The translations under genes and the position numbers were made by a program. Below, one piece after another: positions 2,139 to 20,488 of a stretch of DNA of 64,000 nt. Origin of the DNA: Porphyrobacter sp. (GTDB lineage Bacteria; Pseudomonadota; Alphaproteobacteria; Sphingomonadales; Sphingomonadaceae); assembly GCA_032116115.1 (NCBI GenBank), contig JAUMAX010000020.1, forward strand, positions 6,220 to 70,219, read 5' to 3'. Every line of letters begins with the position of its first letter. Positions within the stretch are counted from its first letter, which is position 1. A model generated the notes under the pieces. That model had not been told where the DNA came from, ran no database searches, and was given only the letters and a program-made list of their open reading frames with translations.

Positions 2139-2140
2139 GA

Positions 2141-5559: not shown

Positions 5560-6020
5560 GGCAGGTCCGCGGAAGCCGGTTCGGCCGCCGGAACGGAAAC
5601 GAACGCAACCTTGGTAAAGCCAGCTTGCGCGATTCCTGAGACAACCTCCATCACGCTGCCATAGGCAAGCGACCGATCGGCGCGGACGAAAACCATCTGT
5701 TTGTCCGGGGCCTCGGATGCAAGCGCAAGCTGGGCGATGGCCTCCCCGAAAGCCTCTGGCGCCAAAAGCGTTCCGCCCAAGTATGTTTTCTGCTCGGCAT
5801 CGAGGATGACCTCAATCGGTTCTCCCCCGGCTGCGAGCGGGTTCGCGCGAACGTCGGGAAGGTCCACCTCTGTGCCGGAAACCAGCATTTGCCCGGTGAC
5901 CATGAAGATGATCAGCAACACCAGCATCACATCCACCATCGGGGTGACGTTGATTTCGGACAACAGATGGTCCTGCCGACGATGTCGGCGAGACCCGAGA
6001 AAATGCGATTTACCTGCCAT
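5556..6020 (-). CDS. tolR: TolR/ExbD paralog
   Basis: EINVTPMVDVMLVLLIIFMV with the essential Asp; VRADRSLAYGSVMEVV. Confidence 0.92.
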   Translation of the reverse strand: MAGKSHFLGSRRHRRQDHLLSEINVTPMVDVMLVLLIIFMVTGQMLVSGTEVDLPDVRANPLAAGGEPIEVILDAEQKTYLGGTLLAPEAFGEAIAQLALASEAPDKQMVFVRADRSLAYGSVMEVVSGIAQAGFTKVAFVSVPAAEPASADLP

Positions 6021-6049
6021 TGCCGCGCCCTAAGCCCTTCCCGCCAAGA

Positions 6050-6736
6050 TCAACGGATGATGCCGTACTGACGAGAAATGGCGACTTCGACGCGACCTGC
6101 GGTCGCACGCCACTCCTGATCGGTAGCTGCGAGCGCTTGCACGATCCGGTTGTAACCCATCGATGCCGGGATCGCGCAGAACAAGCCGACTGCGGTGGCA
6201 AACAGTGCTTCCGCCATCCCAGGCGCAACAACTGCAAGCGACGTATCCTGCGCCTGGCTGATGCCAATGAAGCTGTTCATGATACCCCAGACTGTGCCCA
6301 GCAGGCCAAAGAATGGAGCAGTATTGCCAATGGTAGCCAACCAGGTCGAATTGCCGGCAAGTTGCGCATATTCGCGCTCGATTGTTAGTTCCGATGCTGA
6401 CGCAAGACGATCCCGGATGTTCTCGTAGTCGCGGCTGGCGTGTTCAATGGACCACTTCCATTCCTGGGCCAGTGAGTGCAGGATCTCATGGACCCTGCCA
6501 TCGCCTGACACAGCAAGCTCTCGTAATTCTTCAATTGTCTCGACGGAACGAAGAAGCTTGCCGACGGTGCGGATCATTCGCCGCTCAATCGCGATCGCCA
6601 ATGTGCGGGCTATGATAACCGACCATGAATAGGCAGATGCCAGGACGAGGAGAATTATGACCGATTGAACGACCAGATCGGCTTCGAAGAAAATCTGTAA
6701 GGGCGTCATGCCGGATGAAATCCTTCCGATGGTCAT
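6050..6736 (-). CDS. tolQ: TolQ/ExbB paralog
   Basis: LATIGNTAPFFGLLGTVWGIMNSF and VAPGMAEALFATAVGL MotA/TolQ motifs. Confidence 0.93.
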   Translation of the reverse strand: MTIGRISSGMTPLQIFFEADLVVQSVIILLVLASAYSWSVIIARTLAIAIERRMIRTVGKLLRSVETIEELRELAVSGDGRVHEILHSLAQEWKWSIEHASRDYENIRDRLASASELTIEREYAQLAGNSTWLATIGNTAPFFGLLGTVWGIMNSFIGISQAQDTSLAVVAPGMAEALFATAVGLFCAIPASMGYNRIVQALAATDQEWRATAGRVEVAISRQYGIIR

Positions 6737-6782
6737 AGGCGATTACCTTCTGCCTGATGCCGAAGCGCAGAGACCCGAGATT

Positions 6783-7382
6783 TTAAAGAACGAGAGCGCG
6801 GAACAGGGTGGCGAGGTCAGGCACGCCGGTGACGGTGATCTTTTCGCGCTTCTGGAATGTCTCGACCGCCGTAGCGATGGACGTGCCCCATTGACCGTCG
6901 ATCGGTCCGGAATACATTCCGCGTTCCAACAGGCGCGATTGCAAGGCTTTGAGCGCCCCCTCGCGTATCGCCATCGTCCGGCCTTTGTGTTCAATAATGA
7001 CGATGGCCGTCGCGTTGCGCTGATGCATCGGAGAGGTTGCGCGAATGACCTCGTGGGCCGCAGCTTCAACGGTAATGGTCGGCTGATCGGCACAAATTGC
7101 CGACACTGCCTGCAAGAAAACTGCTCCATCAGGGAGCGGAAGGACATCAAAGGTTCCGTTTTCCACACGATTTCGTGCAGTCGCATATCCCATCAGCCAC
7201 GAACCATAATTGGCTGCATGTGTGCTGTCCGGGAATTCCGTGTTGAATGTCTCGCACGTGCGTGAACCGTAGCCTCGCAACGCAAAGCTTCCTTCCACAT
7301 CCGATGCAGCGGCGCCGTTATGAAAAAATGCGCTGGCTGCAAAGACTGCGGAGCCCGCCAGAAACTTTGAAAAGCTGTACAT
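6783..7382 (-). CDS. Secreted protein: HdeA/HdeB-like two-Cys N-terminal domain plus PG_binding_1 domain
   Basis: Signal ending AAA-S; GYGSRTC...YGSWLMGY...N...IC..QP; C-terminal LQSRL..RGMY.GPIDG.WG....AV..FQ.......TG..D. Confidence 0.75.
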   Translation of the reverse strand: MYSFSKFLAGSAVFAASAFFHNGAAASDVEGSFALRGYGSRTCETFNTEFPDSTHAANYGSWLMGYATARNRVENGTFDVLPLPDGAVFLQAVSAICADQPTITVEAAAHEVIRATSPMHQRNATAIVIIEHKGRTMAIREGALKALQSRLLERGMYSGPIDGQWGTSIATAVETFQKREKITVTGVPDLATLFRALVL

Positions 7383-7461
7383 GCTGTGATGCCTTTGCAG
7401 AAAAAGGTGCGAAACCCCGGGTCTGGTGAATGCGCTCACCGCGCCCGAGGTTTCCACTTGA

Positions 7462-7527
7462 GTGGTCCTGACCGGAGTCGCTAGATCAGGACCACATGCA
7501 GCCCACAGGCTCGGGGGGAACCTGTGG
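7462..7527 (-). terminator. Two tandem stem-loops just after the giant gene stop (attenuator or mRNA-stabilising hairpins)
   Basis: CCACAGG(7503-7509)/CCTGTGG(7521-7527) and GTGGTCCTGA(7462-7471)/TCAGGACCAC(7486-7495) are perfect inverted repeats; no strong U-tract. Confidence 0.55.
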
Positions 7528-7537
7528 AAGCAGCAAT

Positions 7538-10500
7538 TTACTTGGCCCCGATGACGGAAACCGAGCTGTTGCCGATAGCCGTCGCCGAGCCAGCGTTGCC
7601 GCTGTTCACGAAGCTGCTGGCACCGAACGTCCCGAACGAACCGACGCTGTAGGTCACATTAGATGCAACCGCAGTCACTGCGCCGGTGTTGGTCTGCTGG
7701 TTACCCAGCGCGACATTGGCCATGCCGGTGTTCAGCGAGCTCAGCATGACAGTGTTGGCTGTCGTGTTTCCGACCGCAAAGGCCGTCGTGCTGTTGTTGC
7801 TGTTGCTGACACTTGCATTCAGCACACCCGCAGTCGTTGCCGCGCTCGTCGCGTTGAGGGCGATCGACGTCCTCCCCGTGGCGATGGCGGACACCGAACC
7901 GGTGTTCGACTGATCGTTGAGCAGCGCCGCATTTGCCTGGGCAAGGTTGGTTCCGCCATTGATCGTCGCGTTGCCATCAGCACCCGTATAGCTGGCGCCT
8001 GCGGTGTAGTTCAGCGTGTTGGAAGCGCTGTTACCGCGAGCAAGTGCCAGGGTGGTGTTACCTTCGACAGATACCGAGCTGGTATCGAGCGAAGGCAACG
8101 GGTTCGGCAGAATTCCTGCGTCGCCGCTGACAGTGAACTGAACGTTGCTGGTCGCATTAGCCACGGTGGTGGTGCTGCTGGACTGCTGGTTCACCAACAT
8201 TGCCGATGAACCAAGGTTCGCATCGGCACCCACGGACATCGTGTTGGCCGAACGGTTGGCAGTCGATTCCGACCGGGTCGCGTTGTTCGACATCGAGACG
8301 CTGCCATCGACGAGACCAGTGGTGGTCGTGTCGTTGGAGCCGATGTTGTAGACGCTCGTGGTGGCCGAAGTATCCAGCGTTCCCGTTGCATTCTGGGCGT
8401 TGACCAGAACGAACGAAGCGTCGCTGTTGGCAGTAGTGCCATTTGCAACATTCGAATTACCGGCTGCCTGAGCCACCGAAGTCGAATTGGTTGACGATGC
8501 AGTCAGCGTGTTGGTCGCGTTATTGACCACACCCAGCGCACTGTTGGCGTTGCGATCCAGTGCCACGTTCGACCCGCTGGAAACGACGTTGGCCGCCACT
8601 TCCATGTCGCTGCTGGCGTTGATGTCAGCCGTTGCACCATCTTGCACACTGGTCAGCACGCCCGACGTTGCCGTTCCGGCCAGATCCGTACCAGCAACCG
8701 TGAGGCTGTTGGTCACGGTGTTACCGATCGCTTCACCGTACGCGCTGTTGCCCGATACGCTGAGGGTCGAGTCGGTGATCGCCGTGTCAAGTGCACCATC
8801 AATTGCGAAGGTGGTGAACACTTCGGTCGTGCTGCTGCTACCTGCCAGCAGCGTCTGGGTGGAAGCCAGGGATGAGTCGGCTGTGCCTTCCGCTTCTGGC
8901 TGACCAGTCCCATTCACCCAAGCTTGGGAGTTACCGATGGCATTGTTACCATCAGCCGAAGTCGATGCGACAGTCACGCTGTTGGCCGCCGAGTTGCCAA
9001 TCGCCGACCCCTGCACCGCGTTGCCTTCAACGGCAATTGTGCTGGAGTCGATGACACCTTCAACGTCCACCAGAACACCGCCGGCGTTGAACGATCCAGT
9101 GGTGCCGGACACTGGCAGAGTTACACCGCCCGTACCGGGGGTGGCGTAGGAGAATACGCGCGTGATGGGGTTATAAGTGACGGCGTATTGGGCGAGGAAT
9201 GCATTCACCTCGTCAGTGCTCAGACCAGCAAGGCTGCCGGTCGCAACACCAGCGGTGATCGTTGCCGAAACGGTGAACGGTGCAACATCGGCGCTGCCAG
9301 CAAAACCGATCAGAGCAGAAACATCCTGCGAGCTGACCTGAGCGTTGCCAAGACCTGCAGTGACCCCGTCCAGCGTGGTTCCGTCGACACTGACCGCGTT
9401 GGTCGCACGGTTGCTGGAGGCAAGTGCCTGCAGCAGGTTACCGTTCGATTCAATCGAGGACGAAGTGACAGTGGAGTTCACGTCGGTGACAACCGCCGAG
9501 CTGTTTCCAAAGGCGCCGCCGGTTGCTTCACGCAGGCTGGCGACCACATTGCCGGCACCCGCCACCTGGGTGTTGGACACCCCGAACTGCGCGTCGACAG
9601 TATTTTGGTCGCTACCCGGATACGCATCCGACTGGGCGGTAAGCGCGCTGCCCGAAAGCGACGTGCCCGAAACCGTCAGGACATTGCTGGCCCGAGCGGA
9701 TTCTGCCGAAGTCATGACCCGGTTGTTCGAGGTTTCCACCGAGCTGCGCAGAATTGCGAGATCGATTTCAGTCTCGGCGACAGCCTGTCCATCGCCATTG
9801 ACGGTGGCAAGAATATTTGCCCCGGCAACGTTCTGGAGGTTGGCAATCGCTGCATCGCCCTGGCTGTTGACCGAAGTCAGCGTGCCGACGTCCAGAGTCA
9901 CAGCATTGGCTGCCACCGTGCCCTGTGCCTGTGCCATCAGCGTGTTGGCATTCACGACGGTGTTCGCGTCGGTCAGCCCACCTTGCACATCCATGCGGAA
10001 CGAGTTCGTGTCATCCGGAATGCTCGTGGCAGTCACACCCGCACGCACCTGCTGCACGTTGACAACGCCAAAAGCGGCGGTGGCAGTTGCATCAAGCGAC
10101 GTCGGGCGGCTGTTGGTTACACCGCCGTTCGCGCCCAGCTCAAGGATCTGCGCGTCAACGGTAAGGGTGTTGGCAGCAACGGTACCGCGTGCAATTGCCG
10201 AAGCATTGTTGCCCGCAATTTCCGCCGAACTTTCAACGACGTTACCGCGGTAGCTTACATCGACCGAAGCATTCTGCGTAGCCGTAACGGTCGAAGTTGC
10301 ATCATTGGTCTGCAAGTTCGCAATGCCAGCTGCCGAACCGACAGTGACACCCGTCAGCGACAGGCTGTTGCCAGCATCGCTGCCGACCGCAAAGGCCTGC
10401 TGGGCATTGTTGGTGACAGCAACCGAAGTGTTGGTGGCATTGCCGCTCTGAGTCTGTCCGATGGTGACATCAATGTCCGATGCACTGTTCTCGGCAGACA

Positions 10501-12196
10501 CGGTCGATGCGGTGTTGATCATTGCACTGGCAATGACGACCGCACCAGAGGCAGAGACAGCCTCGTCACCCAATGCCACCGGTGCCAGATCAACCGTCAG
10601 AGCCGCCGAAGTGGCCGTGCCGGAATTCAGCGAGGTCGCTTCCAGACCGATCGTCTGACGGGCACGGTTGCCCGCTGCGCTGGAAGCCAGAACGTTGGCA
10701 TCCACCGTGATCGTGCTGTCAATGAAGCTGGCAGTGGCACTGCCTGCAACATCAACATTGATATCAGCATTGTCCGAATCTGCCTGAAGATCAACGGTGT
10801 CCAGTTCCTGACGCGAGGCCAGCACGGCCGATGCATCAAACACTGCCGAAGAATCACCGCTGGCAATAACTGCGTTCAGGTTGTTACCCGTTGCCCCGGA
10901 CGTGATGCGGTTGGACGATGCATCAATCGAGCTGCTGTTGGGAGTCTCGACATCAACATCAACCTGGTTGCCGTCGCTCAAGCTGCGCAAAATGCCAGTC
11001 GTCACGACCTGCGTGTTCACGCCGACCAGACCGCCGCTGGCGATGACATCAGCCAGGTTGGCCGGGCCCGCACCAAGTTCGTCGATCGTTGCGCTGGCCG
11101 TATTGGCCGCCCCGGTGTTGTAGGCAAGACCATCAGCCAGTGCGATCTGCGTCGTGGCAGTGTTGCCGTTGGCCGCAGCTGCAATCGTGTTCGAAGCAAC
11201 CGACAGGCTGCTGTCGACGAACGACGTGGTGACGGCACCAGGACCGGAAATGTTGGCCCTTACGGCATTGCTCCGAGCGATAGCAGCATTGTCGGTGGTG
11301 TTCGCATCGAACGACTGCGCATTGCTGATCGCTGCCGTCACCGAGGTGTTGGCATCGTCAGCAGCAAGGCCGATCGAAGCGGTACGTGCGTTTGCAGTGA
11401 AGGTTGCAGTCACGTCATTGCCGTCGAGCGTGGCCGTTCCAGTGACGTCTGCAGTTGCAGTCGTCGAGATCGACACGAAGGTCGTCGAATCAGCCGTTTC
11501 TGCGGTCGAATCGGCGCTTGCATTTGCGATCTGCACCGACGACACCAGCAGCGTGCCCTCAAGGTCGGCAACGTCGGTGGCCGAACCCGAAAGGTCGGCC
11601 GTGACAGTAGCGTTGTTGGTGGCAAGATTGGTGTAACCAACCGGCTCCGAACCAGTGATCGACAGCGCGAAGGTGTTGCTGCCTTCGTTGATCACAACAC
11701 CGGAAGATACCGTGTTGTTCGAAACATCGACCGAACCGGTCGCGAAATCGACCAGAGTGGTGCCGATGTCTGCCGAAGAATTGGTGGCATCCACACTGGC
11801 AGTTACGCCCGTGTTGACCGACACACCCGACAGCGCAATGCCATCGTCAAGCAGGGTTGAGCTGCCGATATTGGCGAGCGAAGCCGAAACGCCGTTGCGG
11901 TTGGCAATGGCGGTCGCATCGGCAGTGTTCGCGTTGTTTTCGAACACGCCGTTGGTGACCGCACCAGTGTTGGCGGTGGTCGCATCGAAATCGACGTTGG
12001 TGGCGAGTACGGCACCAGTGTTGCGCTGGGCAGTGGTGTCACCGCCGGTGACGTGCGCCTGCAGCACCGAATCAAAGTTCGGAGCAGTCACAATGGACTG
12101 CGCTTGTGCCGGACCGGCAATGATCGCGGATGCCAAAATGGCAGTGCTGGCGCCAGCAAATAGCTGTGAGCGTTTTGTGGATATTCTACTATTCAT
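7538..12196 (-). CDS. 1552-aa secreted beta-repeat surface protein (HfaD/curli-like repeats; adhesin, fibre or S-layer candidate)
   Basis: Sec signal ending AQA-Q; about 18 copies of S-x-x-V-x-x-N-x3-A-x-A-x-G-N-x-A-x-N, mostly followed by an N-x-Q segment; rich in Ala/Ser/Thr/Asn/Val/Gly/Asp, no Cys. Confidence 0.85.
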   Translation of the reverse strand: MNSRISTKRSQLFAGASTAILASAIIAGPAQAQSIVTAPNFDSVLQAHVTGGDTTAQRNTGAVLATNVDFDATTANTGAVTNGVFENNANTADATAIANRNGVSASLANIGSSTLLDDGIALSGVSVNTGVTASVDATNSSADIGTTLVDFATGSVDVSNNTVSSGVVINEGSNTFALSITGSEPVGYTNLATNNATVTADLSGSATDVADLEGTLLVSSVQIANASADSTAETADSTTFVSISTTATADVTGTATLDGNDVTATFTANARTASIGLAADDANTSVTAAISNAQSFDANTTDNAAIARSNAVRANISGPGAVTTSFVDSSLSVASNTIAAAANGNTATTQIALADGLAYNTGAANTASATIDELGAGPANLADVIASGGLVGVNTQVVTTGILRSLSDGNQVDVDVETPNSSSIDASSNRITSGATGNNLNAVIASGDSSAVFDASAVLASRQELDTVDLQADSDNADINVDVAGSATASFIDSTITVDANVLASSAAGNRARQTIGLEATSLNSGTATSAALTVDLAPVALGDEAVSASGAVVIASAMINTASTVSAENSASDIDVTIGQTQSGNATNTSVAVTNNAQQAFAVGSDAGNSLSLTGVTVGSAAGIANLQTNDATSTVTATQNASVDVSYRGNVVESSAEIAGNNASAIARGTVAANTLTVDAQILELGANGGVTNSRPTSLDATATAAFGVVNVQQVRAGVTATSIPDDTNSFRMDVQGGLTDANTVVNANTLMAQAQGTVAANAVTLDVGTLTSVNSQGDAAIANLQNVAGANILATVNGDGQAVAETEIDLAILRSSVETSNNRVMTSAESARASNVLTVSGTSLSGSALTAQSDAYPGSDQNTVDAQFGVSNTQVAGAGNVVASLREATGGAFGNSSAVVTDVNSTVTSSSIESNGNLLQALASSNRATNAVSVDGTTLDGVTAGLGNAQVSSQDVSALIGFAGSADVAPFTVSATITAGVATGSLAGLSTDEVNAFLAQYAVTYNPITRVFSYATPGTGGVTLPVSGTTGSFNAGGVLVDVEGVIDSSTIAVEGNAVQGSAIGNSAANSVTVASTSADGNNAIGNSQAWVNGTGQPEAEGTADSSLASTQTLLAGSSSTTEVFTTFAIDGALDTAITDSTLSVSGNSAYGEAIGNTVTNSLTVAGTDLAGTATSGVLTSVQDGATADINASSDMEVAANVVSSGSNVALDRNANSALGVVNNATNTLTASSTNSTSVAQAAGNSNVANGTTANSDASFVLVNAQNATGTLDTSATTSVYNIGSNDTTTTGLVDGSVSMSNNATRSESTANRSANTMSVGADANLGSSAMLVNQQSSSTTTVANATSNVQFTVSGDAGILPNPLPSLDTSSVSVEGNTTLALARGNSASNTLNYTAGASYTGADGNATINGGTNLAQANAALLNDQSNTGSVSAIATGRTSIALNATSAATTAGVLNASVSNSNNSTTAFAVGNTTANTVMLSSLNTGMANVALGNQQTNTGAVTAVASNVTYSVGSFGTFGASSFVNSGNAGSATAIGNSSVSVIGAK

Positions 12197-12251
12197 TAGA
12201 TACAGTTCCCTTTTGGATTTGCGTGCGTTTGATTTTATTTTGCAACCCGAG

Positions 12252-13616
12252 TTACTTTATTTTTATTTGTATTTTTGCGATTTCCTGGAACCCCGGGCCA
12301 TCACGATATATTGCGGAATCGCCCGAAGATGGCCTCCAGTTCACTTGCACCGCTGAAGCAGGTACCCCCCTGTTTGAAAGCGCGGCGACTACCGCCGCAA
12401 TGCGCTGGTCCAGCAGGGCGTCGCGCCGTGCCGGATCCCAGTTCTCAGTGTCCCGCGCGACCAAAGTCACCGAGACAGTGCCCTCGCCCGAAAGCTGGGC
12501 AATCATGTCCAGCACGGATTGTGCGCTCGACATGAGATTGGAATCGCCGAACTCGAAGCCGAGCTGCATCTGGCCGGCAGCGGAAGATGCACCCTTCGCG
12601 TCCAGTTCGTTGAGCGAGCGAGCGGCTGTGGGAGTCGGCATTGCCGGAGCCTGCACAGGCGCGGGGACGTATCCTTCCTGGCTCGAAACCAACAAAGACC
12701 GTCCGCGCAGTTCGTCTGCCGACTTCTCGGGAATGGTATCGAGGCGCTGCGCCATGCAAGTCGCCGGGTCGACGTTCTTGACCGAGGCAACCAGCTTAAG
12801 AACGCCCTCCTCGAGCGCCGTGCGGATCCCAAGCTGCAAGGGCTCCTGGCCCTTCGCACCGATATTGATGTCGAACAGTTCGGTGCCGAAAAAGCGAAAG
12901 ACGCCGGCACCAATCTCGTACCCGCTGAATTGCTTTGTCAGGCTCACCGTTTTCAGCACCAGCAGTGAACGTGTATCGACAATCCGCAGGTCGATAGCGA
13001 CGCTTTGCGTGTACACACGCGCTTCCGGGCCGACATTGTTGACTGTGATTTGCGCACCGCCGGAGCGGATGTTGTAGTTTACTTCCGTGATGCCGCCGAC
13101 AATGTAGTAATCAGACTGCGCAATCGTCCCGCCAAAGTAAGGAAGCCACGGCACGCGATCACCATTTACCTGATGCACTTGGCCGTTGCCAAGCTGACGA
13201 CGATCCGTGTAGCCCAATTCGCGCTCGGCAATTGTCGGGTCAAAGCGCTCAGCTATCCGGAGCGGCCCGCCGATCTTTCCAAGTGCAGAATACACCATCA
13301 GCGATCCGCCCTGCGTGATCGCGTTGCCTTCATTGATGGAATATTTGCCGGTGTAATCGCGAACTTCTCCGACCGCGACGACAACAGGTTGGGAGGTCGT
13401 TGCAGTCAGCTGATCACCGAAGCAAGCGAGCGCCCCCTCCATCGGCGAGCGATTGTCACGAACTGGCGCACCGATTGCGATCGGCACTTCGCCCGGCGCG
13501 ACCCGCTGGCTGTCGAGGCCTACTCCCGTCGCGGCACAGCCTGAAAGGCCGCTGCCGAGCAAGGTAACCATCGCCGCAATTGCAGCGCGCGGAGTTTTGC
13601 GATTTGCGGAATGCAT
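12252..13616 (-). CDS. hfaB: HfaB/CsgG-family outer membrane lipoprotein with C-terminal OmpA-like domain
   Basis: Lipobox LSGC; VGEVRDYTGK, ITQGGSLM, SDYYIVGGITEVNYNIRSG, AIDLRIVDTRSL, EPLQLGIR match HfaB/CsgG as recalled; tail GFEFGDSNL...QRIAAVVAAL..RGVPAS resembles OmpA_C. Confidence 0.85.
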   Translation of the reverse strand: MHSANRKTPRAAIAAMVTLLGSGLSGCAATGVGLDSQRVAPGEVPIAIGAPVRDNRSPMEGALACFGDQLTATTSQPVVVAVGEVRDYTGKYSINEGNAITQGGSLMVYSALGKIGGPLRIAERFDPTIAERELGYTDRRQLGNGQVHQVNGDRVPWLPYFGGTIAQSDYYIVGGITEVNYNIRSGGAQITVNNVGPEARVYTQSVAIDLRIVDTRSLLVLKTVSLTKQFSGYEIGAGVFRFFGTELFDINIGAKGQEPLQLGIRTALEEGVLKLVASVKNVDPATCMAQRLDTIPEKSADELRGRSLLVSSQEGYVPAPVQAPAMPTPTAARSLNELDAKGASSAAGQMQLGFEFGDSNLMSSAQSVLDMIAQLSGEGTVSVTLVARDTENWDPARRDALLDQRIAAVVAALSNRGVPASAVQVNWRPSSGDSAIYRDGPGFQEIAKIQIKIK

Positions 13617-13622
13617 GGGGCT

Positions 13623-14156
13623 CTATCCAGCTGCCGCATACTGGCAAGCCGACGATCCATTGATGGTCGACGTCTGGTTGCCCGAGTTCGTCTGGCGGGT
13701 ATTGAGCGCCTGGAAATTGTCACCTCGGACAGAGGTTGACATCGAACCCGATGATCCAGCGGCGACTGCACCCGAATTGCCCTGCGTCGTTGTATCGGTG
13801 CTGCCGTCACCCGGTCCGCCAGCTGCGTATGTCGTGTCATTCTGGTTACCGGTCGCATCAGTATTGTGCCCTGCCGTGCTGGGCGAGTTGGCGACCGCAT
13901 TTGACGACGACTCATTTCCAGTCGCAGTCGAATTGACCGAGCAATTATACTGATCATCGATGTAGGTATTATATATTGGGGCCGAATAATAACCGTTTAT
14001 TCCGCGCTGACGCACTTCTTCAAGATACATAAGCGCCGCTCTATCGGCTGGTGTGTTGAATTGCCAAGCCGCATTTTCGCCAACGTTATTGGCAAATGAT
14101 GGCTGCGCGACAAGAGATCCAACCATGGATATTGCGAGAAACAACTTCTTGGGCAT
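13623..14156 (-). CDS. Small secreted Asn/Ser/Thr/Gly-rich protein, HfaA/CsgA-like subunit candidate
   Basis: ATG 14156, signal ending SFA-N; STATGN, TDATGN, QTNSGNQ motifs shared with the giant protein; sits directly upstream of hfaB as hfaA does. Confidence 0.7.
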   Translation of the reverse strand: MPKKLFLAISMVGSLVAQPSFANNVGENAAWQFNTPADRAALMYLEEVRQRGINGYYSAPIYNTYIDDQYNCSVNSTATGNESSSNAVANSPSTAGHNTDATGNQNDTTYAAGGPGDGSTDTTTQGNSGAVAAGSSGSMSTSVRGDNFQALNTRQTNSGNQTSTINGSSACQYAAAG

Positions 14157-14212
14157 TTCGTTTAACCTAATGAACTGGGAAATTCGGACGTCGCTTGAAG
14201 ATGCGGGGGCCG

Positions 14213-15541
14213 TCACAATGCAGGCATCGAACAAGCCGACGCCTCGTGCTGCGCATGAGGCGCCGCCACCTTCGCCCAGGATCTGGAAATTCGTTGACCA
14301 CCGCACCACGCGCCCTTTTGCAGCGCAGCGCGACTTTCACGCGCGACAGTAGCCAGGTTGATACAGTCCACACCGTCGACAATGACCTCGGCACCCAAGG
14401 CGTGCGCCAATCCGACAAGGTAAGAAAGTGGATCACCGCCAAATTGGGTGCGCAATGTTTGCGAGAGAAAATGCCTGTCAATCGTCACAAAATCGGGAGT
14501 GAAAGCGACCAGATCGCGCAACGACGTCGAGCCTAGGCCGAAGTTGCCGAAGGATATGCGACAACCTTGCCGCCTGAGCATGGCGAGCGTTTCGCTCATA
14601 CCTGGGGCCGCGCAGGCCACTGCAGATCCTCTGACCTCAACGATCAGGTCACGCGCTACACCGCCGCCGCGCTCGAGCTTTTCGAGAATTCCGCGCCAGA
14701 AATGTTGATCGGAGAGGCTTTCGTGAGAGACTGAGACCAATAATGAGACCGCGCCACGCGCTTCAATCAACTCGTCGGCCGCACGCGAGACGATATAGCT
14801 GTCAAGCAAATGGACGAGGCCAACTCGCTCTGATGCTGCTATTACCTGCTCGCAGGCCGCAGGCTGACCATCCGCTCTGATCAACGCAAGCGTCGCTTCG
14901 TAGAAGGCCGATCCGCCTGGCGCGGCCGCTCTGCCGACGGGCCGCCAGCCAATATCGACATCGACGACATCTCTTGCCAGTCCGACTCGCTCGGCTTCGC
15001 GAAATCCACCAATTGCGGCAAGTACGGGCGACAAGACCGCCATATCAGTACGATACGAGCGCCGAGCAGCCTCGACAGCCGACAGGATGATGACATCTGG
15101 ACCGGCCGCAGCGACGCCATTATTCAGACAGCGCTCTGAACCATCAAGATTGATTACGGAGGCGTGGAGATGAACCGGCCCCGCGGCGGTGAACACTGGT
15201 TCGAGAACAATGTCTCTGATGAGCGCTTCGAGCCAATCGCTTTCGGCATGGTCGAACCGATCAGAGCCGCGCTTGGGCGCGCCCCAGAAGATCACCCCTA
15301 CGCGTGCTGCACCTTCGGGGCTTGCTACGCCGGCCGAACCGAGCCCGGCCTGCACACGCGCCAACAAGGTGGCAAACGCAGCTTGCGCAACTTCGAGGCC
15401 GAACGCCTCGACGATCATTTGATAGTTTTGTATTTCTATTACGAACACTTGCTCCGACCTGACGTCGGATAAACGCTGCCGTAGAGAGGGGTGAATCAGT
15501 ATCTTGTTCGACAATTGCAAATCGCTGAGATCCACGTCCAC
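14213..15541 (-). CDS. Degenerate GGDEF-EAL protein (probably catalytically inactive)
   Basis: EAL-fold landmarks FYEATL, LIVEV, FGNFGLGSTSL, VTIDRHF, VIVDGVD; eroded N-terminal GGDEF-like segment; GTG start. Confidence 0.8.
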   Translation of the reverse strand: MDVDLSDLQLSNKILIHPSLRQRLSDVRSEQVFVIEIQNYQMIVEAFGLEVAQAAFATLLARVQAGLGSAGVASPEGAARVGVIFWGAPKRGSDRFDHAESDWLEALIRDIVLEPVFTAAGPVHLHASVINLDGSERCLNNGVAAAGPDVIILSAVEAARRSYRTDMAVLSPVLAAIGGFREAERVGLARDVVDVDIGWRPVGRAAAPGGSAFYEATLALIRADGQPAACEQVIAASERVGLVHLLDSYIVSRAADELIEARGAVSLLVSVSHESLSDQHFWRGILEKLERGGGVARDLIVEVRGSAVACAAPGMSETLAMLRRQGCRISFGNFGLGSTSLRDLVAFTPDFVTIDRHFLSQTLRTQFGGDPLSYLVGLAHALGAEVIVDGVDCINLATVARESRAALQKGAWCGGQRISRSWAKVAAPHAQHEASACSMPAL

Positions 15542-16376
15542 CCCTCCCCTACTTTTGATCTTTGTTTAAAAGATCTATTTTTGCGACCGAAAGGCCCAGG
15601 TGCCGATCAAACTATTGATCGAGCTCCTCAAAGGTCAGCGGCTTCTGCCGTTTTCTACCTAAGATGAAGCGAGCACTGGTTGCTTTCGTTTATGCAGATA
15701 GTGGACGGCAGGCGGCGGGGCACGTGACATTGCTGCCAATCGGCGCTCGGAATAGGACCGATATGGCGGGAAGGCTGCCGGGGCGTTGTTGAGATGCCTT
15801 TTCAAAAGCGGTTGAGCGGAGAGTAGGGGGCTTTGAAAGACTTTATAAAACAATACTGTGGTGCATCTCATGTCGCAATTTGGCTCGCCTTTGGTCTGGT
15901 TGAAAATGGTGGCAAGATGACTGCAATATCTCGCGCCCCCGCGTTGCTCCGTCAGCGGCACAGCTCAAATGCCCCCGATGCCACTTTGCAGCCTTCTCAC
16001 TTCGGGTTTGCTTTGGGCTGGCTGGCGGCGCACGCATGCACACAGATCGGTTGGTTCAAGCAAGCCCGTTGATCGAGGAAGCAATAAATCGAAGATTTGA
16101 TCCGAAGGCTTCGAGATCAATTTTCCTGCGCGCATTGGCGGATCGTCCAATGCGGCGAAACAACGATCATATTGGTTGTTTTGAGGCGGCGTCCCCCGGC
16201 TCTGGGCACGATACCGGTCTACCGCATATACATGCGGGTGATGAGTGGAGACATTCCCGTGAATGCGCGCCCACTAGCGATCCCGCCGCCCCCTTTGCGA
16301 CAATTTCACCGGGGCTCCCACCGCTGAATTGGGGGTCATGCCATAGCAATCACAACTGCCCAGAGGAAAGGCGCAG

Positions 16377-16709
16377 CTACTCTGGCGCTGGCTGATCAAG
16401 CGCACCCAGCTTTCCCGCCGCGATAATCGCAGTCCGGAGAGCATGCGCGAGCTTGCCGTTCACCACCTCGGCGAACACCTCACGCTTGATTGCAATTAAC
16501 TCGGGTGACTGCGGACCAAGTTCATCCAAAGCGGATTGGACGATGCCCAGGACATCCTTGTGCGTTAGCGCAAGGCATGTCTCCGACTGCGCCAGCCGCG
16601 CCGCTTCGAAGTCAAACCCGATCGCACCAAGTGACGGCTTGCGATATTGTTCAGGCATAGAAACCTCATAGACTTTTGGGCGAACTGTCATTGTTGATAG
16701 CATGTCCAC
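16377..16709 (-). CDS. Small hypothetical protein
   Basis: 110-codon ORF with natural-looking helical sequence downstream of a long AT-rich intergenic region; start uncertain. Confidence 0.5.
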   Translation of the reverse strand: MDMLSTMTVRPKVYEVSMPEQYRKPSLGAIGFDFEAARLAQSETCLALTHKDVLGIVQSALDELGPQSPELIAIKREVFAEVVNGKLAHALRTAIIAAGKLGALDQPAPE

Positions 16710-17928
16710 CTAGGGTGTCCCATTAAAGTGCGCAAACGAAAGATGAGCACCTAGTATCTTGGGAAGCCAAATAAATGACACGTTAGCTGAATATTTTATA
16801 ATTTTCATTCGATTATTAATCGAACTAAGCAATTATTATTAATCAATACGCGTGATTACGCATATTGTGGCAAAATATGCACGACTCATCGCAATCATAT
16901 CGTTATAAAATTTAGCTTAAATGCTAGAAACAAAAATACAGTAAACCCTCAGTATTACACTTTGATTATACTAAAGCGGTCAGTAAAATCCAACAACTTG
17001 ACTACATTTTTTTACATTTACTAAAAAACCTCTAAATACTATCCTGAAATTGATATTTCTAACTTAATCCCGTTGACTTCGTTGGAGGCATTTATCAATT
17101 AGCCGATCCTGATTGCGTAAAGGCCTCCCAATGCGAGTTGGCAGTACGACCTGAATCCCCTGCATTTGCGGTCCCCCAACGCACTGTTTTTGATCCCTAG
17201 GCGAGGATCTGCGCAACAGCATTTCCCCAGCTGACTGTCAAAATTGCAAAAAATACAATAAGTTCAGGGATGATTGTTGCCGCAGGCAGATCGACGAGAA
17301 CAATATCGACGTTTGCGGGGATGGGTGATCTGGCGATGCAATCAGCTCTTGCGCCCATCAAGTGGCGACAGACAAGGTGTTCAGCGTTGGCGTCGAGTTC
17401 CTCGCTGGCGGCGAAATCGGTGCGGCTGTCCGAGGCGACGGGGCAATCATCATCGGCAACCTGAAATGTGCTGCTGATCTCGTGCACTAGGAACTGGGCA
17501 CTCAAACTTTTGCAGTTTTGCATGACTTCCAATTTAACTTTTGCCCACATATTCTTGTCTGTCGCCCCATTTATGCGAGCGGGCGATGGGCTTTTTTTGC
17601 GGCCTCGTCGCGAAGAAGAGTTGCCGTTTTGGTGTCATTTGGCGCGATATTGGCAACAAGTTTGGCGCTATCGACCAAGTGTGGCCCGCTTTTGCGCATA
17701 AAAGCCAGATAGCCGGACAGGCTGCGTTCGGCACAGCTGCATTCCGCGCTCTGAGCCAGTCTGCAATTTCTGGTTGTCAGGTGTTAGCTAAGAGATTGCG
17801 GCACACCTGCCGGCGGGTAACGACGGCATCGCCCCAATGTTGGTTGTTCAGGACAATTCAAACTTCTTCCTCTTTCATGCGTGCAATAGACCGGCCCTGA
17901 TAGTTTAGATCGAGGCCTAAAGCGGATA

Positions 17929-18489
17929 TTACCCCTTGATCACCCACCACTCCGGCCAGTTCACCTTGTGCGGCGTGCGGGTCGAATTCCAAACTTCGCG
18001 CTGCTCTTCCTGGCTAAGCTGCTTGCTGCCGAGCCGCACCAGTGCGGCCTCAACGATCCAGGGATCGAGATCCCAGCGCACGCGGGCTTCATCAGTCGGG
18101 TGCTTGAGCTTGGCCATTCCTAGCAGTTCGAGAATCGCATCAGCTCCAATGCCGACCGAGCGGATCACAATCTTGGAGATACCAGTGGCCTTGTCGTCAC
18201 CTCTTGCCGCCCTCGCGGCTTCGATCGCCTCAAGCGAAGCGCGTGCAGCTGTGCTGTCACCAGCGAGGCCTTTCTGGGTGAGCTGCAGCAGGAACGCCTC
18301 GGCGGCGGTGACTCTGCGCTCGTGCCCATCCTCACGGACGGTCACCATCTGACCCAGCACCGCATCGTAAGGGATCTCGCGGTGACGGTTCTTGGGACGT
18401 CCGCGCGGATTGCCGGACTGCCCCTTGGTGAACTTCGAGGCCTTGGGCGGCTGCCTGTAGCCAACCTGCTCTTGCGCGCCCTCGCTCAT
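17929..18489 (-). CDS. DUF5681-like protein
   Basis: VGYRQPPKASKFTKGQSGNPRGRPK motif; ATGA overlap with the upstream gene. Confidence 0.8.
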   Translation of the reverse strand: MSEGAQEQVGYRQPPKASKFTKGQSGNPRGRPKNRHREIPYDAVLGQMVTVREDGHERRVTAAEAFLLQLTQKGLAGDSTAARASLEAIEAARAARGDDKATGISKIVIRSVGIGADAILELLGMAKLKHPTDEARVRWDLDPWIVEAALVRLGSKQLSQEEQREVWNSTRTPHKVNWPEWWVIKG

Positions 18490-19004
18490 CCGGTGCAACC
18501 TCGAGGCCAGCGCAGCTTGTCGGAATCGAAGGTGAAGAACTCGATGTTCTTTGCATCCTTCTCGGCCAACCTTCGCGTGCCCGGCCTGCTAAGCGCAGCC
18601 TGCGTCGCCCAGGCATGGATTTTCCAGCGATTGGGGAACCCGGGATCGGGTTCTGAAATGCCGAGAACACGCATCGCCTCATTGGCATTGTCGGCATAAT
18701 GATGCCGCTCGACTTTGACCTTCGAGCGTGAGGTCGCACAATTCTTCTTCGCAAGCGTCATTTCGCGCTTCTCGATCATCTTGAGCACTTTGCGGATCGC
18801 CATGCGCTTTCCGGCAAGCGCGTCGCGCAAGGTCTGCTGTTGCAGCACCTCCTCGACCGTCAGCTCGCGCTCCTTCCCGCCGATGGTTGCGGTCATGCGC
18901 TTGTCGAGCACGATCTCGAACGCGGAGACGTTGGGTCGGCGCGGCTTGCGGGGACGCCCGTTGGGATTGCCGGACTGGCCGGGCTTGAAGCGGGTCGTGC
19001 TCAT
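18486..19004 (-). CDS. DUF5681-like protein
   Basis: TRFKPGQSGNPNGRP motif; ATGA overlap with the methyltransferase stop. Confidence 0.8.
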   Translation of the reverse strand: MSTTRFKPGQSGNPNGRPRKPRRPNVSAFEIVLDKRMTATIGGKERELTVEEVLQQQTLRDALAGKRMAIRKVLKMIEKREMTLAKKNCATSRSKVKVERHHYADNANEAMRVLGISEPDPGFPNRWKIHAWATQAALSRPGTRRLAEKDAKNIEFFTFDSDKLRWPRGCTG

Positions 19005-20308
19005 GCGGCAGTCTCGGCGCCAAGCTCGCGGTGAACGAGCTCCGGCTCCTTGCCGGTGAGGTCGGTCCAGCGCTGCATGGCAAGGTTTACATAGGCTGGG
19101 TCGATATCGAGCCCGCGGAACCGGCGGCCGACTCGCTCGGCTGCGATCAGGCTTGTTCCCGAGCCGAGGAAGATATCGAGCACCAGCTCCCCCTGCCGGG
19201 TCACGTCGCAATAGGCGTCCGCCACCATGGCAACCGGCTTGACCGTCGGATGCAGGTCCAGGTCTTCCCGGCGAGACCCGCGCATCGAGTTGACGCTCGC
19301 ATAGTCCCAGACATTGGTGCGGTTGCGTCCGTGCTTGCCGAGTTCGACATTGTTGATGTGAGGGCCGCTGCCGACCCGGTAGACGAACACCATCTCGTGC
19401 TTCGAGCGGTAGAGCGAGCCCATGCCGGCATTGCTCTTGTTCCAGACGCAGATGTTGAGAAGGTCGTCATAGATGCCGGATACCGAGGCAGTAACGTCGT
19501 CCATGTGGCGCCAGTCCATGCAGACAAAATGCACCGCGCCATCGCGTGATACCTTGGCGCAGGCGCCGAGCGTGTCAGTAAGGAAGGTCCGGAACTCGGT
19601 ATCGGTCATCTCGCCCGATGCCATCGCGAACTCGCGGTGACGGCCCTTGGCATTGGCATGGCCATTGATCTTCACGTTGTAAGGCGGGTCGAGGAACGCG
19701 CAGTCGATCACACTGCCCTCCCCGACGATCGCATGGAGGAACGCGGCATCGCGGCCATCCCCGCAGCCGATGCGGTGCTCGCCCAGCTGCCAGATGTCGC
19801 CGGGCATGACGCGCGGGTTCTCGGGCACAGCGGGGATGACCTCGTCGTCCGGATCCTCGGTCTCGGACAGAACCACGTCGATCTCGCCGGGGCTGAACCC
19901 GGTGAGCCCCAGGTCGATATCGATGTCGGGCATCGACAGGTCAGCAAGTTCCAGCTTGAGGATCTCGGTATCCCAGCCTGCGTTGAGCGCGATCTTGTTG
20001 TCTGCAAGGCGCAGCGCCCGCTTCTGAGGCTCGGTCAGACCATCCAAAGTGATCACCGGAACCTTTTCGAGCCCAATTTCCTTGGCAGCCCGCAATCGGC
20101 CGTGCCCGGCGATAAGGTTGCCCTCGGGATCGGCGAGGATCGGGTTGGTGAACCCGAACGCCGTGATCGATTGCACGATCTGCGTAACCTGCTTCCTGGA
20201 ATGGGTACGCGCATTGCGCGGGTCAGGCGTCAGATCGCCGGGGGCCTTGTAGACCACCTGAAGCGTCCGGTCGGCGGGTAGTCCCGCCTTTGAGGGAGGG
20301 TTGGACAT
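19001..20308 (-). CDS. ParB-like domain plus N4/N6 DNA methyltransferase (beta class)
   Basis: N-terminal RNARTH...FGFTNPIL...IAGHGRL; motif IV DPPY precedes motif I LDIFLGSGT. Confidence 0.9.
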   Translation of the reverse strand: MSNPPSKAGLPADRTLQVVYKAPGDLTPDPRNARTHSRKQVTQIVQSITAFGFTNPILADPEGNLIAGHGRLRAAKEIGLEKVPVITLDGLTEPQKRALRLADNKIALNAGWDTEILKLELADLSMPDIDIDLGLTGFSPGEIDVVLSETEDPDDEVIPAVPENPRVMPGDIWQLGEHRIGCGDGRDAAFLHAIVGEGSVIDCAFLDPPYNVKINGHANAKGRHREFAMASGEMTDTEFRTFLTDTLGACAKVSRDGAVHFVCMDWRHMDDVTASVSGIYDDLLNICVWNKSNAGMGSLYRSKHEMVFVYRVGSGPHINNVELGKHGRNRTNVWDYASVNSMRGSRREDLDLHPTVKPVAMVADAYCDVTRQGELVLDIFLGSGTSLIAAERVGRRFRGLDIDPAYVNLAMQRWTDLTGKEPELVHRELGAETAA

Positions 20309-20488
20309 AAGTGGAACATACCACGCAAGCCCCTCTTTCAAAAGCAACAAGACTCAACTTTATTCACAGCTGTGGAAACGACTGGACTACGGCGGCACGG
20401 CAAGCATTACTGTTCCTGCGCCCGGCGAACCGGGCTCGTCCCGGTAGCGGCGGCCATTCCGGCCCCGCCGCGCAAACCGGAGACGAAC

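What the first reader, a model, noticed from the sequence alone, without database searches (positions are those of the whole stretch)
12252..13616. CsgG/HfaB pore fused to a C-terminal OmpA-like domain
Seen: after the HfaB-like core and a Pro/Ala linker there is a roughly 100-aa domain with OmpA_C landmarks (F.F.DS.L....QSVLD....QR..AV..AL..RGV....V.V.W) but a non-canonical ARDTENW in place of GHTD. Established: E. coli CsgG has no such domain and forms an oligomeric outer membrane pore. Inference: an oligomeric ring carrying cell-wall grips or a Tol-interaction domain, suited to bearing mechanical load.
Basis: partly seen in the sequence, partly recalled or inferred. Interest (0 to 1): 0.65.

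Follow-up and report, generated by a model that had tools for sequence, protein, structure and literature searches.

The report
CsgG/HfaB pore with divergent OmpA-like tail
This gene encodes a curli/holdfast-type outer-membrane channel lipoprotein that carries, on a flexible linker, a conserved but unusual Pal/OmpA-like domain. That domain probably ties the channel, and the giant surface protein encoded next to it, to the cell wall.

Summary
Window 12252-13616 (-) is a 454-aa lipoprotein. It has a lipobox (LSGC), a CsgG/HfaB core (residues 42-288), a variable Pro/Ala linker (289-346) and a conserved 108-aa C-terminal domain (347-454).

The C-domain is a remote but real homologue of OmpA/Pal domains:
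- hhalign gives 97% probability.
- A family profile finds only OmpA-like chains in the PDB.
- The same profile reaches canonical PF00691 proteins at library-wide significance.
- AlphaFold gives pLDDT 92 with a beta-alpha-beta-alpha-beta-beta fold, and Pal is the top Foldseek match (TM up to 0.59, though no match reaches E 0.001).

The domain is divergent. The canonical diaminopimelate-binding Arg is invariant (R405). The canonical Asp position is Thr, followed by an invariant Glu (E391). The NRRVE end motif is replaced.

Canonical Caulobacteraceae HfaB proteins lack the domain. The fused type is a separate, horizontally spread subfamily found in Sphingomonadales, Comamonadaceae and other groups. 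It always sits in a cassette of hfaA-like gene, pore gene and giant repeat protein gene.

Binding to peptidoglycan is plausible but unproven. A role in binding Tol proteins is not supported by gene order outside a small sublineage. This is a new variant of a known kind, of moderate interest.

The parts
12252..13616 (-). Whole gene: 454-aa CsgG/HfaB-family lipoprotein with C-terminal OmpA-like domain (stop codon at 12252-12254)
   Evidence: ORF list; Pfam and NCBIfam; 1036 relatives at E<=1e-3 among the 8000 candidates scored
13536..13616 (-). Signal peptide and lipobox L-S-G-C (residues 1-27). Cys27 is the predicted lipidated N-terminus; the residues after it are Ala-Ala, with no Asp at +2
   Evidence: Read from the sequence; C27 is invariant in 32 relatives. 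Outer-membrane sorting is inferred from the E. coli +2 rule
12753..13493 (-). CsgG/HfaB core (residues 42-288), including the stretches that align to the two transmembrane hairpins of E. coli CsgG, and an altered constriction loop (Y92-S-I-N95-E96-G-N)
   Evidence: Pfam CsgG E 1.7e-17; NF037935 203.7 bits; PDB CsgG chains E 4.6e-12, residues 78-276; mean pairwise identity 74%
12579..12752 (-). Linker (residues 289-346). It starts with a conserved segment holding invariant Cys287/Arg304, continues as a Pro/Ala-rich stretch of variable length, and ends with a conserved L-N motif
   Evidence: Alignment A1; 25% mean identity; length 37-242 residues, median 53, in 72 loci
12255..12578 (-). Divergent OmpA/Pal-like domain (residues 347-454), beta-alpha-beta-alpha-beta-beta
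   Evidence: hhalign 96-97% against the genome's own OmpA domains; BLASTP 37% identity over 71 aa, E 2e-10; PDB profile hits all OmpA-like, best 7.9e-4; canonical PF00691 proteins hit at 2e-9 to 1e-4 in 1.84 billion representatives; AlphaFold pLDDT 92.4; Foldseek top hit Pal, TM 0.53-0.59
12438..12458 (-). A387-R-D-T-E-N-W393 loop, in the place of the canonical G-H-T-D-x-x-G. The canonical Asp position is T390; E391 is invariant
   Evidence: hhalign and BLASTP registers; conservation in A4
12402..12404 (-). Arg405, invariant. It is the equivalent of the diaminopimelate-binding Arg of OmpA-like domains (AbOmpA Arg286), 15 residues after the canonical Asp position
   Evidence: Alignments; the role of Asp271/Arg286 as reported in PMC12108004
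13623..14156 (-). hfaA-like small secreted Q/N/S/T/G-rich protein, first gene of the conserved cassette
   Evidence: Found immediately upstream of the pore gene in all 80 related loci; no Pfam or NCBIfam match
7538..12196 (-). 1552-aa repeat protein, the likely cargo or fibre of the pore
   Evidence: Found downstream of the pore gene in most loci long enough to show it; annotated 'S-layer family protein' on a Variovorax plasmid
6783..7457 (-). Small protein with a C-terminal PG_binding_1 domain, an accessory cassette gene in alphaproteobacterial loci
   Evidence: Pfam PG_binding_1 E 7e-13; homologues follow the cassette in L001, L002, L004, L031, L046, L047, L049, L059, L063 and L064
14213..15541 (-). 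EAL-domain protein upstream of the cassette (likely c-di-GMP-linked regulator)
   Evidence: Pfam EAL E 1.5e-25; homologues upstream in several Sphingomonadales and Variovorax loci

Best explanation
The gene encodes an outer-membrane lipoprotein of the CsgG/HfaB family. By homology with CsgG it assembles into a ring-shaped secretion channel, and its cargo is probably the products of the two flanking genes (the HfaA-like subunit and the 1552-aa repeat protein). Unlike CsgG and true Caulobacter HfaB, each subunit continues into the periplasm as a flexible Pro/Ala linker of about 55 residues. The linker ends in a 108-residue, strongly diverged Pal/OmpA-like domain. The most likely role of this domain is a non-covalent grip on the peptidoglycan, through a modified pocket built around invariant Arg405 and invariant Glu391. 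Pulling forces on the surface fibre would then pass to the cell wall rather than to the outer membrane alone. Shown here: the architecture, the homology, the fold, the conservation, and membership of a distinct, horizontally mobile subfamily. Inferred: the ring assembly, the periplasmic location of the tail, and peptidoglycan binding.
For: Core and lipoprotein signal.

C-domain homology to OmpA-like domains:
- Pfam OmpA E 0.044 and NCBIfam PA1041 peptidoglycan-anchor lipoprotein E 0.0039, both below threshold.
- PDB profile hits were 15 of 16 and then 43 of 43 OmpA-like chains. Best were PorE at 7.9e-4 and Pal at 3.7e-3.
- hhalign against 7 canonical OmpA domains of the same genome gave 96% and 97% probability.
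- BLASTP against one of those domains gave 37% identity over 71 aa, E 2e-10.
- A profile search of 1.84 billion representatives gave 127 hits. All 8 sampled proteins (318-634 aa) among those matching the whole domain are CsgG fusions. All 10 sampled weak hits are canonical PF00691 proteins.
- Relative P0147 passes Pfam's OmpA threshold with the same domain (31.3 bits).

Fold: AlphaFold pLDDT 92.4, pTM 0.84, beta-alpha-beta-alpha-beta-beta. The Foldseek top hit is Pal 4b5c (probability 0.98), and Pal, OprF and YfiB reach TM 0.58-0.59.

Pocket: R405 and E391 are the only invariant charged residues in 44 diverse sequences. R405 sits exactly at the canonical Arg position and E391 one residue from the canonical Asp position. 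The role of the Asp/Arg pair is reported in PMC12108004.

Selection: 59% identity in the domain against 25% in the linker.

A cell-wall theme recurs in the cassette. There is a PG_binding_1 gene in alphaproteobacterial loci, and one lineage has a canonical OmpA domain inserted (P0151).
Against: - This protein's own Pfam OmpA score (14.6 bits) is below the gathering score of 27.2.
- No Foldseek match reaches E 0.001, and IF3 C-terminal domains, which share the simple topology, appear among the hits.
- The canonical Asp is replaced (T390; Thr, Ser, Val, Asn, Ile, Ala or Leu in relatives).
- The Asn of the N-x-x-L-S-x-x-R-A motif is Arg398.
- The NRRVE end motif is replaced by Q-E-I-A-K-I. The last ~27 residues do not align with canonical domains.
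- P0151 keeps the divergent domain and also carries a canonical OmpA domain. That may mean the divergent domain does something other than bind peptidoglycan.
- No binding, localisation or expression data are available.
Confidence: 0.6

Rival explanations
1. The OmpA-like domain has been re-purposed to bind a protein partner rather than peptidoglycan. Candidates are TolB of the adjacent second Tol-Pal set (as Pal binds TolB), the neighbouring PG_binding_1 protein, or the HfaA-like or giant cargo.
For: The canonical Asp and the NRR motif are lost, while a new set of invariant residues (W427, P429, D433, G442, Q444, A447) appears in the last third of the domain. Pal is among the best sequence and fold matches. 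Pal's peptidoglycan face is also its TolB face; that point is established knowledge, recalled and not tested here. A complete Tol-Pal set lies 4.8 kb downstream in this window. P0151 adds a canonical OmpA domain while keeping the divergent one.
Against: Tol genes follow the cassette only in this window and in L001, L002 and L004. The Variovorax, Acidiphilium, Allopusillimonas and Rhodospirillaceae loci and the Variovorax plasmid have none within the 2-3 kb downstream, yet all keep the domain. The PG_binding_1 gene is absent from the betaproteobacterial loci. The invariant Arg sits exactly at the diaminopimelate-binding position.
Confidence: 0.25
2. The tethered C-domains, one per subunit of the ring, act as a built-in periplasmic gate or cargo receptor for the channel. 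They would replace the separate CsgE-type cap of curli systems.
For: No CsgE or CsgF homologue was seen in the cassette. The domain is tethered directly under the periplasmic vestibule, and the constriction loop of the core is altered.
Against: There is no similarity to CsgE, and homology points to cell-wall-binding domains. Linkers of up to 242 residues suit a reach to the wall better than a cap held tightly on the ring.
Confidence: 0.08
3. The tail is a decaying remnant of an old fusion, with no present function.
For: Canonical motifs are degraded. In the closest relative (L031) an insertion sequence separates the core from the tail.
Against: The domain shows 59% mean identity against 25% in the linker. 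It has invariant residues across alpha- and betaproteobacterial copies and is present in 72 of 72 complete loci. The AlphaFold model is confident.
Confidence: 0.03

Closest known systems
Caulobacter crescentus HfaB (holdfast anchor translocon; NCBIfam NF037935)
   Same: Both are lipoproteins with a CsgG-like core. This is the best-scoring named family (E 2.8e-60). In both, the gene sits between a small Q/N-rich secreted protein gene and a larger surface protein gene. HfaB is needed for surface display of HfaA and HfaD (PMC6707917).
   Different: This protein scores 203.7 bits against a cut-off of 300, whereas true HfaB proteins score 340-455 bits. It lies on the other side of a long, fully supported branch. 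The ten canonical HfaB proteins examined end 20-45 residues after the core and lack the C-domain. The neighbouring genes do not match any NCBIfam family, HfaA and HfaD included if such models are in the library. The carriers are mostly Sphingomonadales and Comamonadaceae, not stalked Caulobacterales.
E. coli CsgG curli secretion channel (PDB 4uv3, 4q79, 3x2r)
   Same: Pfam CsgG match above threshold. Residues 78-276 align to chain residues 34-228, which include both transmembrane hairpin segments and the helices of the periplasmic domain. Both are N-terminal lipoproteins.
   Different: CsgG stops after the core (262-285 aa). Here a linker and an OmpA-like domain follow. The constriction loop is 4 residues shorter: Y51 falls in the gap, N55 is kept (N95) and F56 is an invariant Glu (E96). 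No csgE or csgF genes are present.
Pal / OmpA C-terminal peptidoglycan-binding domains (Pfam PF00691; PDB 4b5c, 4pwt, 1oap, 5u1h, 3td3)
   Same: Same beta-alpha-beta-alpha-beta-beta fold. Profile-level homology over beta1 to beta3. The Arg of the L-S-x-x-R-A motif is invariant (R405). Like Pal, it is attached to a lipoprotein anchored in the outer membrane.
   Different: GHTD is replaced by ARDTE. The motif Asn is Arg and the motif Ser and Ala are Leu and Ile. The final G-x-G...NRRVE segment is replaced by W-R-P...D-G-P-G-x-Q-E-I-A. This protein is below Pfam's threshold.
OmpA-like modules inside other envelope machines (PorE of the type IX system, PDB 6top; DotK/LphA of the Dot/Icm core, 6x62; MotY and MotB of flagellar stators)
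   Same: These are OmpA-like domains used to fix a trans-envelope machine to the cell wall. PorE is the best PDB sequence hit (7.9e-4) and superposes at 2.5 A over 70 columns.
   Different: In those systems the wall-binding module is a separate protein, or part of a non-channel component. Here it is fused to the channel-forming subunit itself, so a CsgG-like nonamer (recalled stoichiometry) would carry nine copies.

Membership tests
CsgG family (Pfam PF03783) | Match to the family profile above the curated threshold | tested here: met
   63.9 bits against a cut-off of 20.8, residues 71-285; E 4.6e-12 to solved CsgG chains
CsgG family (Pfam PF03783) | N-terminal lipoprotein signal with a lipidated Cys | tested here: met
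   L-S-G-C27 after a basic and then hydrophobic leader; C27 invariant in 32 relatives
CsgG family (Pfam PF03783) | Constriction loop Y51/N55/F56 (residue roles recalled from Goyal et al. 2014) | tested here: not met
   In the HMMER alignment Y51 falls in a 4-residue gap, N55 aligns with N95, and F56 aligns with E96, which is invariant
CsgG family (Pfam PF03783) | Oligomeric (nonameric) beta-barrel pore in the outer membrane | not testable with these tools
   Only monomer prediction was on hand. The hairpin-forming segments do align
HfaB holdfast anchor protein (NCBIfam NF037935, equivalog) | Score above the curated equivalog cut-off of 300 bits | tested here: not met
   203.7 bits, and 205.3 bits in the genome search. 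True HfaB scored 340-455 bits in 53 of 61 Caulobacteraceae genomes
HfaB holdfast anchor protein (NCBIfam NF037935, equivalog) | Groups with Caulobacterales HfaB in a tree of the core domain | tested here: not met
   The fused type and canonical HfaB are separated by one branch with 100% SH-aLRT support and length 4.28
HfaB holdfast anchor protein (NCBIfam NF037935, equivalog) | Flanked by hfaA and hfaD | tested here: inconclusive
   The positions match (small Q/N-rich gene upstream, large surface protein downstream). Neither neighbour matches any NCBIfam or Pfam family
OmpA-like domain (Pfam PF00691) | Match above Pfam's gathering score | tested here: not met
   14.6 bits against 27.2, E 0.044. 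Relative P0147 reaches 31.3 bits with the same domain
OmpA-like domain (Pfam PF00691) | Homology at profile level | tested here: met
   hhalign 96-97%; PDB hits 43 of 43 OmpA-like, best 7.9e-4; canonical PF00691 proteins found at 2e-9 to 1e-4 library-wide
OmpA-like domain (Pfam PF00691) | Beta-alpha-beta-alpha-beta-beta sandwich fold | tested here: met
   AlphaFold pLDDT 92.4 with that element order. Pal, OprF and YfiB reach TM 0.53-0.59 at probability up to 0.98, although no Foldseek E-value is at or below 0.001
OmpA-like domain (Pfam PF00691) | Diaminopimelate-binding Asp (AbOmpA Asp271, in G-H-T-D) | tested here: not met
   The aligned position is T390 (Thr, Ser, Val, Asn, Ile, Ala or Leu in relatives). 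An invariant Glu follows at 391 (PMC12108004)
OmpA-like domain (Pfam PF00691) | Diaminopimelate-binding Arg (AbOmpA Arg286, in L-S-x-x-R-A) | tested here: met
   R405 is invariant in 44 sequences, 15 residues after the canonical Asp position
OmpA-like domain (Pfam PF00691) | C-terminal N-R-R-V-E strand motif | tested here: not met
   It is replaced by Q444-E-I-A447-K-I. N110-R-R are invariant in the genome's own 7 canonical domains, but the last ~27 residues of this domain do not align with them
OmpA-like domain (Pfam PF00691) | Non-covalent binding to peptidoglycan | not testable with these tools
   Needs a sacculus pull-down or muropeptide binding assay

The most novel reading that the evidence does not exclude
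The divergent domain is a Pal mimic, not a wall anchor. The C-domains of the ring dock on TolB of the dedicated second Tol-Pal set encoded a few kb downstream. Proton-motive force would then be coupled to export, tensioning or polar placement of a 1552-residue fibre through a CsgG-type channel, which is otherwise thought to work without an energy source.
Probability: 0.06. Interest if true: 0.85.

Novelty: new variant of a known kind. Interest (0 to 1): 0.5.

Why it matters
CsgG-type channels are described as free-standing outer-membrane pores, and how curli- or holdfast-type fibres pass load into the cell is an open question. HfaB loss causes holdfast shedding, but no wall link is known (PMC6707917). 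This subfamily is found in at least 587 stretches of species-representative genomes and more than 1000 protein clusters. It is spread by horizontal transfer between Alpha- and Betaproteobacteria and sits on at least one plasmid. In it, the channel subunit itself carries a wall-binding-type domain. If that domain binds peptidoglycan, the channel is a trans-envelope anchor with one grip per subunit. The E391/R405 pocket would also be a natural variant of the Asp/Arg diaminopimelate pocket, useful for defining what OmpA-like domains need in order to bind. The system is testable in culturable Variovorax and Novosphingobium strains.

Tried and rejected
- First AlphaFold run, with 26 fairly close sequences and the disordered lead-in included. 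It gave pLDDT 75.5, and Foldseek ranked IF3 C-terminal domains first with nothing significant. I redid it with 44 more diverse sequences trimmed to the domain, which gave pLDDT 92.4 and Pal on top. I treat the IF3-C resemblance as shared simple topology: its TM-scores are lower (0.39-0.48) and no sequence signal supports it.
- Single-sequence PDB search. It found only CsgG for the core and nothing for the tail.
- Literature searches for HfaB plus OmpA, for CsgG plus OmpA-like plus peptidoglycan-binding, and for HfaB plus the carrier genera. None described this fusion.
- Idea that the adjacent Tol-Pal set is an obligatory partner. I rejected it as a general rule, because most related loci have no Tol genes next to the cassette.
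- Idea that true HfaB proteins also carry the domain. I rejected it.
- One genome search failed on a parameter, and one Pfam call failed on a coordinate.
The distance between E391 and R405 in the model could therefore not be measured.
Full report
**1. What is at the coordinates**

The minus strand of 12252-13616 holds one open frame of 454 codons. It starts 6 nt after the stop of a small upstream gene (13623-14156) and ends 55 nt before the start of a 1552-codon gene (7538-12196).

The product begins with a basic and then hydrophobic leader and the lipobox L-S-G-C27. Cys27 is invariant in 32 relatives.

Residues 42-288 are a CsgG/HfaB core:
- Pfam CsgG scores 63.9 bits against a cut-off of 20.8.
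- NCBIfam HfaB gives E 2.8e-60, but 203.7 bits against a cut-off of 300.
- Solved E. coli CsgG chains match at E 4.6e-12 over residues 78-276, which includes the hairpin-forming segments.

**2. Is the tail a real, conserved domain?**

In 32 full-length relatives, mean pairwise identity differs sharply by region:

| Region | Mean pairwise identity |
|---|---|
| Core | 74% |
| C-domain | 59% |
| Linker | 25% |
| Signal region | 25% |

Linker length ranges from 37 to 242 residues (median 53) in 72 loci, while the C-domain keeps its length.

In 44 sequences chosen for diversity (33-77% identical to the query), five columns are invariant: E391, R405, L413, W427 and A447. Seven more are nearly so: F354, R398, G417, P429, D433, G442 and Q444. 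This pattern is that of a folded domain under purifying selection joined by a spacer. It is not that of a decaying tail.

**3. Is it OmpA-like?**

Single-sequence evidence is weak. Pfam OmpA gives E 0.044, below threshold. NCBIfam's PA1041 peptidoglycan-anchor lipoprotein gives E 0.0039.

Family-level evidence is consistent and significant:
- A 26-sequence profile found 16 PDB sequences, 15 of them OmpA-like (Pal, OmpA, RmpM, MotB, YiaD), at E 0.06-1.2.
- A more diverse 44-sequence profile found 43 PDB sequences, all OmpA-like. The best were PorE at 7.9e-4 and Pal at 3.7e-3.
- hhalign against an alignment of the seven canonical OmpA domains encoded in this same genome gave 96% and then 97% probability over 78-79 columns.
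- One of those canonical domains aligns directly by BLASTP, with 37% identity over 71 residues and E 2e-10.
- An exhaustive profile search of 1.84 billion cluster representatives gave 127 hits. Of ten sampled from the upper part of the list, the eight that match the whole domain are CsgG-domain proteins. One multi-stretch 1981-aa hit was unrelated, and one had no full-domain match.
- All ten sampled weak hits (2e-9 to 1.2e-4, library-wide) are canonical PF00691 proteins.
- In relative P0147 the same domain passes Pfam's own OmpA threshold (31.3 bits).

**4. Fold**

The second model (44 sequences, residues 347-454) has pLDDT 92.4 and pTM 0.84. Its element order is beta-alpha-beta-alpha-beta-beta.

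The Foldseek top hit is Pal of Burkholderia pseudomallei (probability 0.98). Pal, OprF and YfiB give the highest TM-scores (0.58-0.59). PorE superposes at 2.5 A over 70 columns. No match reaches E 0.001. IF3 C-terminal domains, which share this simple topology, also appear, with lower TM (0.39-0.48).

Taken with the sequence evidence, I accept the assignment to the OmpA/Pal fold.

**5. How it departs from the canonical domain**

All alignments agree on the register:

| Canonical feature | This protein |
|---|---|
| G-H-T-D | A387-R-D-T390 |
| Y-N | R397-R398 |
| L-S-x-x-R-A-x-x-V | L401-L-D-Q-R405-I-A-A-V409 |

OmpA-like domains bind diaminopimelate through an Asp (in GHTD) and an Arg 15 residues later. 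These are Asp271 and Arg286 of A. baumannii OmpA, as reported in PMC12108004.

Here the Arg is invariant. The Asp position is Thr, or Ser, Val, Asn, Ile, Ala or Leu in relatives. The next residue, E391, is invariant. The genome's canonical domains show no conservation at that +1 position.

The last third of the domain does not align. The canonical F-G...P...N-R-R-V-E is replaced by W427-R-P...D433...D-G-P-G442-x-Q444-E-I-A447.

So a pocket of the OmpA type, with an acid and an Arg, seems to be retained in altered form. Whether it still takes diaminopimelate cannot be decided from sequence.

**6. Family context**

- A genome scan found at least 587 confirmed stretches. The best 80 loci come from these groups:
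  - Sphingomonadales (Novosphingobium, Sphingomonas, Croceicoccus, Erythrobacter, Sphingosinicella);
  - Comamonadaceae (many Variovorax, Ramlibacter, Polaromonas, Xenophilus, Limnohabitans);
  - Alcaligenaceae;
  - Acetobacteraceae and Acidiphilium;
  - a Rhodospirillaceae genome and two Caulobacteraceae genomes assembled from metagenomes.
- In all 80 loci the pore gene is preceded by the hfaA-like gene. Wherever the contig is long enough, it is followed by a giant repeat protein.
- True HfaB is a different protein. In 53 of 61 Caulobacteraceae genomes NF037935 scores 340-455 bits in open frames of mostly 320-420 codons.
- The ten true HfaB proteins I examined end 20-45 residues after the core and have no C-domain.
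- On a tree of the core domain, the fused type and canonical HfaB are separated by one fully supported long branch. Variovorax sequences nest inside Sphingomonadales sequences.
- Only 2 of 151 sampled genomes of the host's own order carry the C-domain, and none of three sampled genomes of the same genus does.
- One full copy lies on a 293-kb Variovorax paradoxus plasmid, where it is annotated 'hypothetical protein'.
- In this window the cassette sits in a stretch of lower G+C (0.56-0.60 against 0.63-0.68 elsewhere), next to a serine-recombinase element.

The cassette is therefore a mobile accessory module.

**7. Function**

By homology with CsgG the core should form an oligomeric outer-membrane channel with its C-terminus in the periplasm. 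This is established for CsgG and inferred here.

A linker of about 55 residues can span well over 10 nm if extended (roughly 0.3 nm or more per residue). That is enough to reach the wall from the base of a CsgG-like ring. The HfaB density in Caulobacter is centred about 66 A below the outer membrane (PMC6707917).

The simplest reading is that each subunit carries a wall grip, so the ring and its fibre are fixed to the sacculus. Three other devices in the cassette point the same way:
- a PG_binding_1 protein encoded after the giant gene in alphaproteobacterial loci;
- a canonical OmpA domain inserted between the core and the divergent domain in P0151;
- in a small Sphingomonadales sublineage that includes this window, a complete second Tol-Pal set.

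P0151 cuts both ways. Adding a canonical domain could mean that the divergent one does not bind the wall.

It cannot explain the domain in general, because most carriers have no Tol genes beside the cassette. My survey of 80 loci contradicts that.

**8. Novelty and verdict**

I found no paper describing a CsgG/HfaB channel fused to an OmpA-like domain. Automated annotation has noticed the architecture in a few relatives. JGI names two of them 'CsgG / outer membrane protein OmpA-like...', while NCBI calls others only 'CsgG/HfaB family protein'.

It is a new variant of known kinds: a distinct, widespread subfamily of the CsgG/HfaB family with a divergent Pal-like module. Interest is moderate. 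It is higher as part of the whole cassette (hfaA-like gene, pore, giant fibre) than on its own.

My confidence is about 0.9 in the architecture and the fold. It is about 0.5-0.6 that the domain binds peptidoglycan.

**Limits**

- Oligomer modelling was not available.
- Model coordinates could not be inspected.

Noticed in passing
L031:8001-10688 (Erythrobacter sp. metagenome-assembled chromosome CP121323.1): In the closest relative (88-93% identical) a 359-aa transposase gene on the opposite strand is inserted just after the core. It splits the pore gene into a 288-aa core ORF and a 174-aa linker-plus-C-domain ORF. Both ORFs are still intact, so this is a recent natural 'domain removal'.
   Followed up: partly
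P0151 (625 aa, from the representative library): One lineage has the CsgG/HfaB core, then a fully canonical OmpA domain (74.9 bits, with GYTD...LSMRRA...NRRVE), then the divergent C-domain. The canonical domain was either added or retained next to the divergent one.
   Followed up: partly
window 13329-13349 (-), residues 90-96: The loop that aligns with the CsgG constriction is 4 residues shorter. The aromatic F56 is replaced by an invariant Glu (E96), within a nearly invariant Y-S-I-N-E-G-N run. The channel's narrowest point may therefore be acidic, which could relate to the almost Lys-free cargo noted by others.
   Followed up: no
window 12756-12758 and 13422-13424 (-), Cys287 and Cys65: Besides the lipobox Cys there are two further invariant cysteines. 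One is near the start of the core and one just after it. They may form a disulfide that pins the start of the linker to the core.
   Followed up: no
L108 (Variovorax paradoxus VAI-C plasmid CP063168.1, 223417-234809): A plasmid-borne copy of the cassette is flanked by two EAL-domain genes and a Crp/Fnr regulator. The giant gene is annotated 'S-layer family protein' and the pore 'hypothetical protein'. Several Variovorax genomes carry two copies of the cassette (for example L020 and L036; L015 and L022; L024 and L038).
   Followed up: partly
window 39597-39884 (-) versus 2817-3380 (-): The window holds two Pal-type genes. One, with TolB beside it, lies at about 39.6 kb and has the genome's best OmpA score (75.8 bits). 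The other is in the Tol-Pal set next to the cassette (58.6 bits; it has the Asp and Arg but RQ in place of YN).
   Followed up: partly
L070 and L055: Contigs binned as Mycobacterium sp. and Prosthecochloris vibrioformis carry the cassette. The sequences nest among proteobacterial ones on the tree. Binning contamination is more likely than real carriage.
   Followed up: no
L104, + strand ORF of 400 aa beside a canonical Caulobacteraceae hfaB: An ORF on the strand opposite hfaB matches positions 52-106 of the C-domain profile (E 8.8e-6). It may be a neighbouring OmpA-like gene or an antisense artefact.
   Followed up: no
window 1-17000 and 17929-22712: The cassette and the second Tol-Pal set lie in a region of lower G+C (0.50-0.61, against 0.63-0.68 elsewhere). 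The region is bordered by a serine recombinase, a ParB-methyltransferase and two DUF5681 genes, which fits a genomic island.
   Followed up: partly
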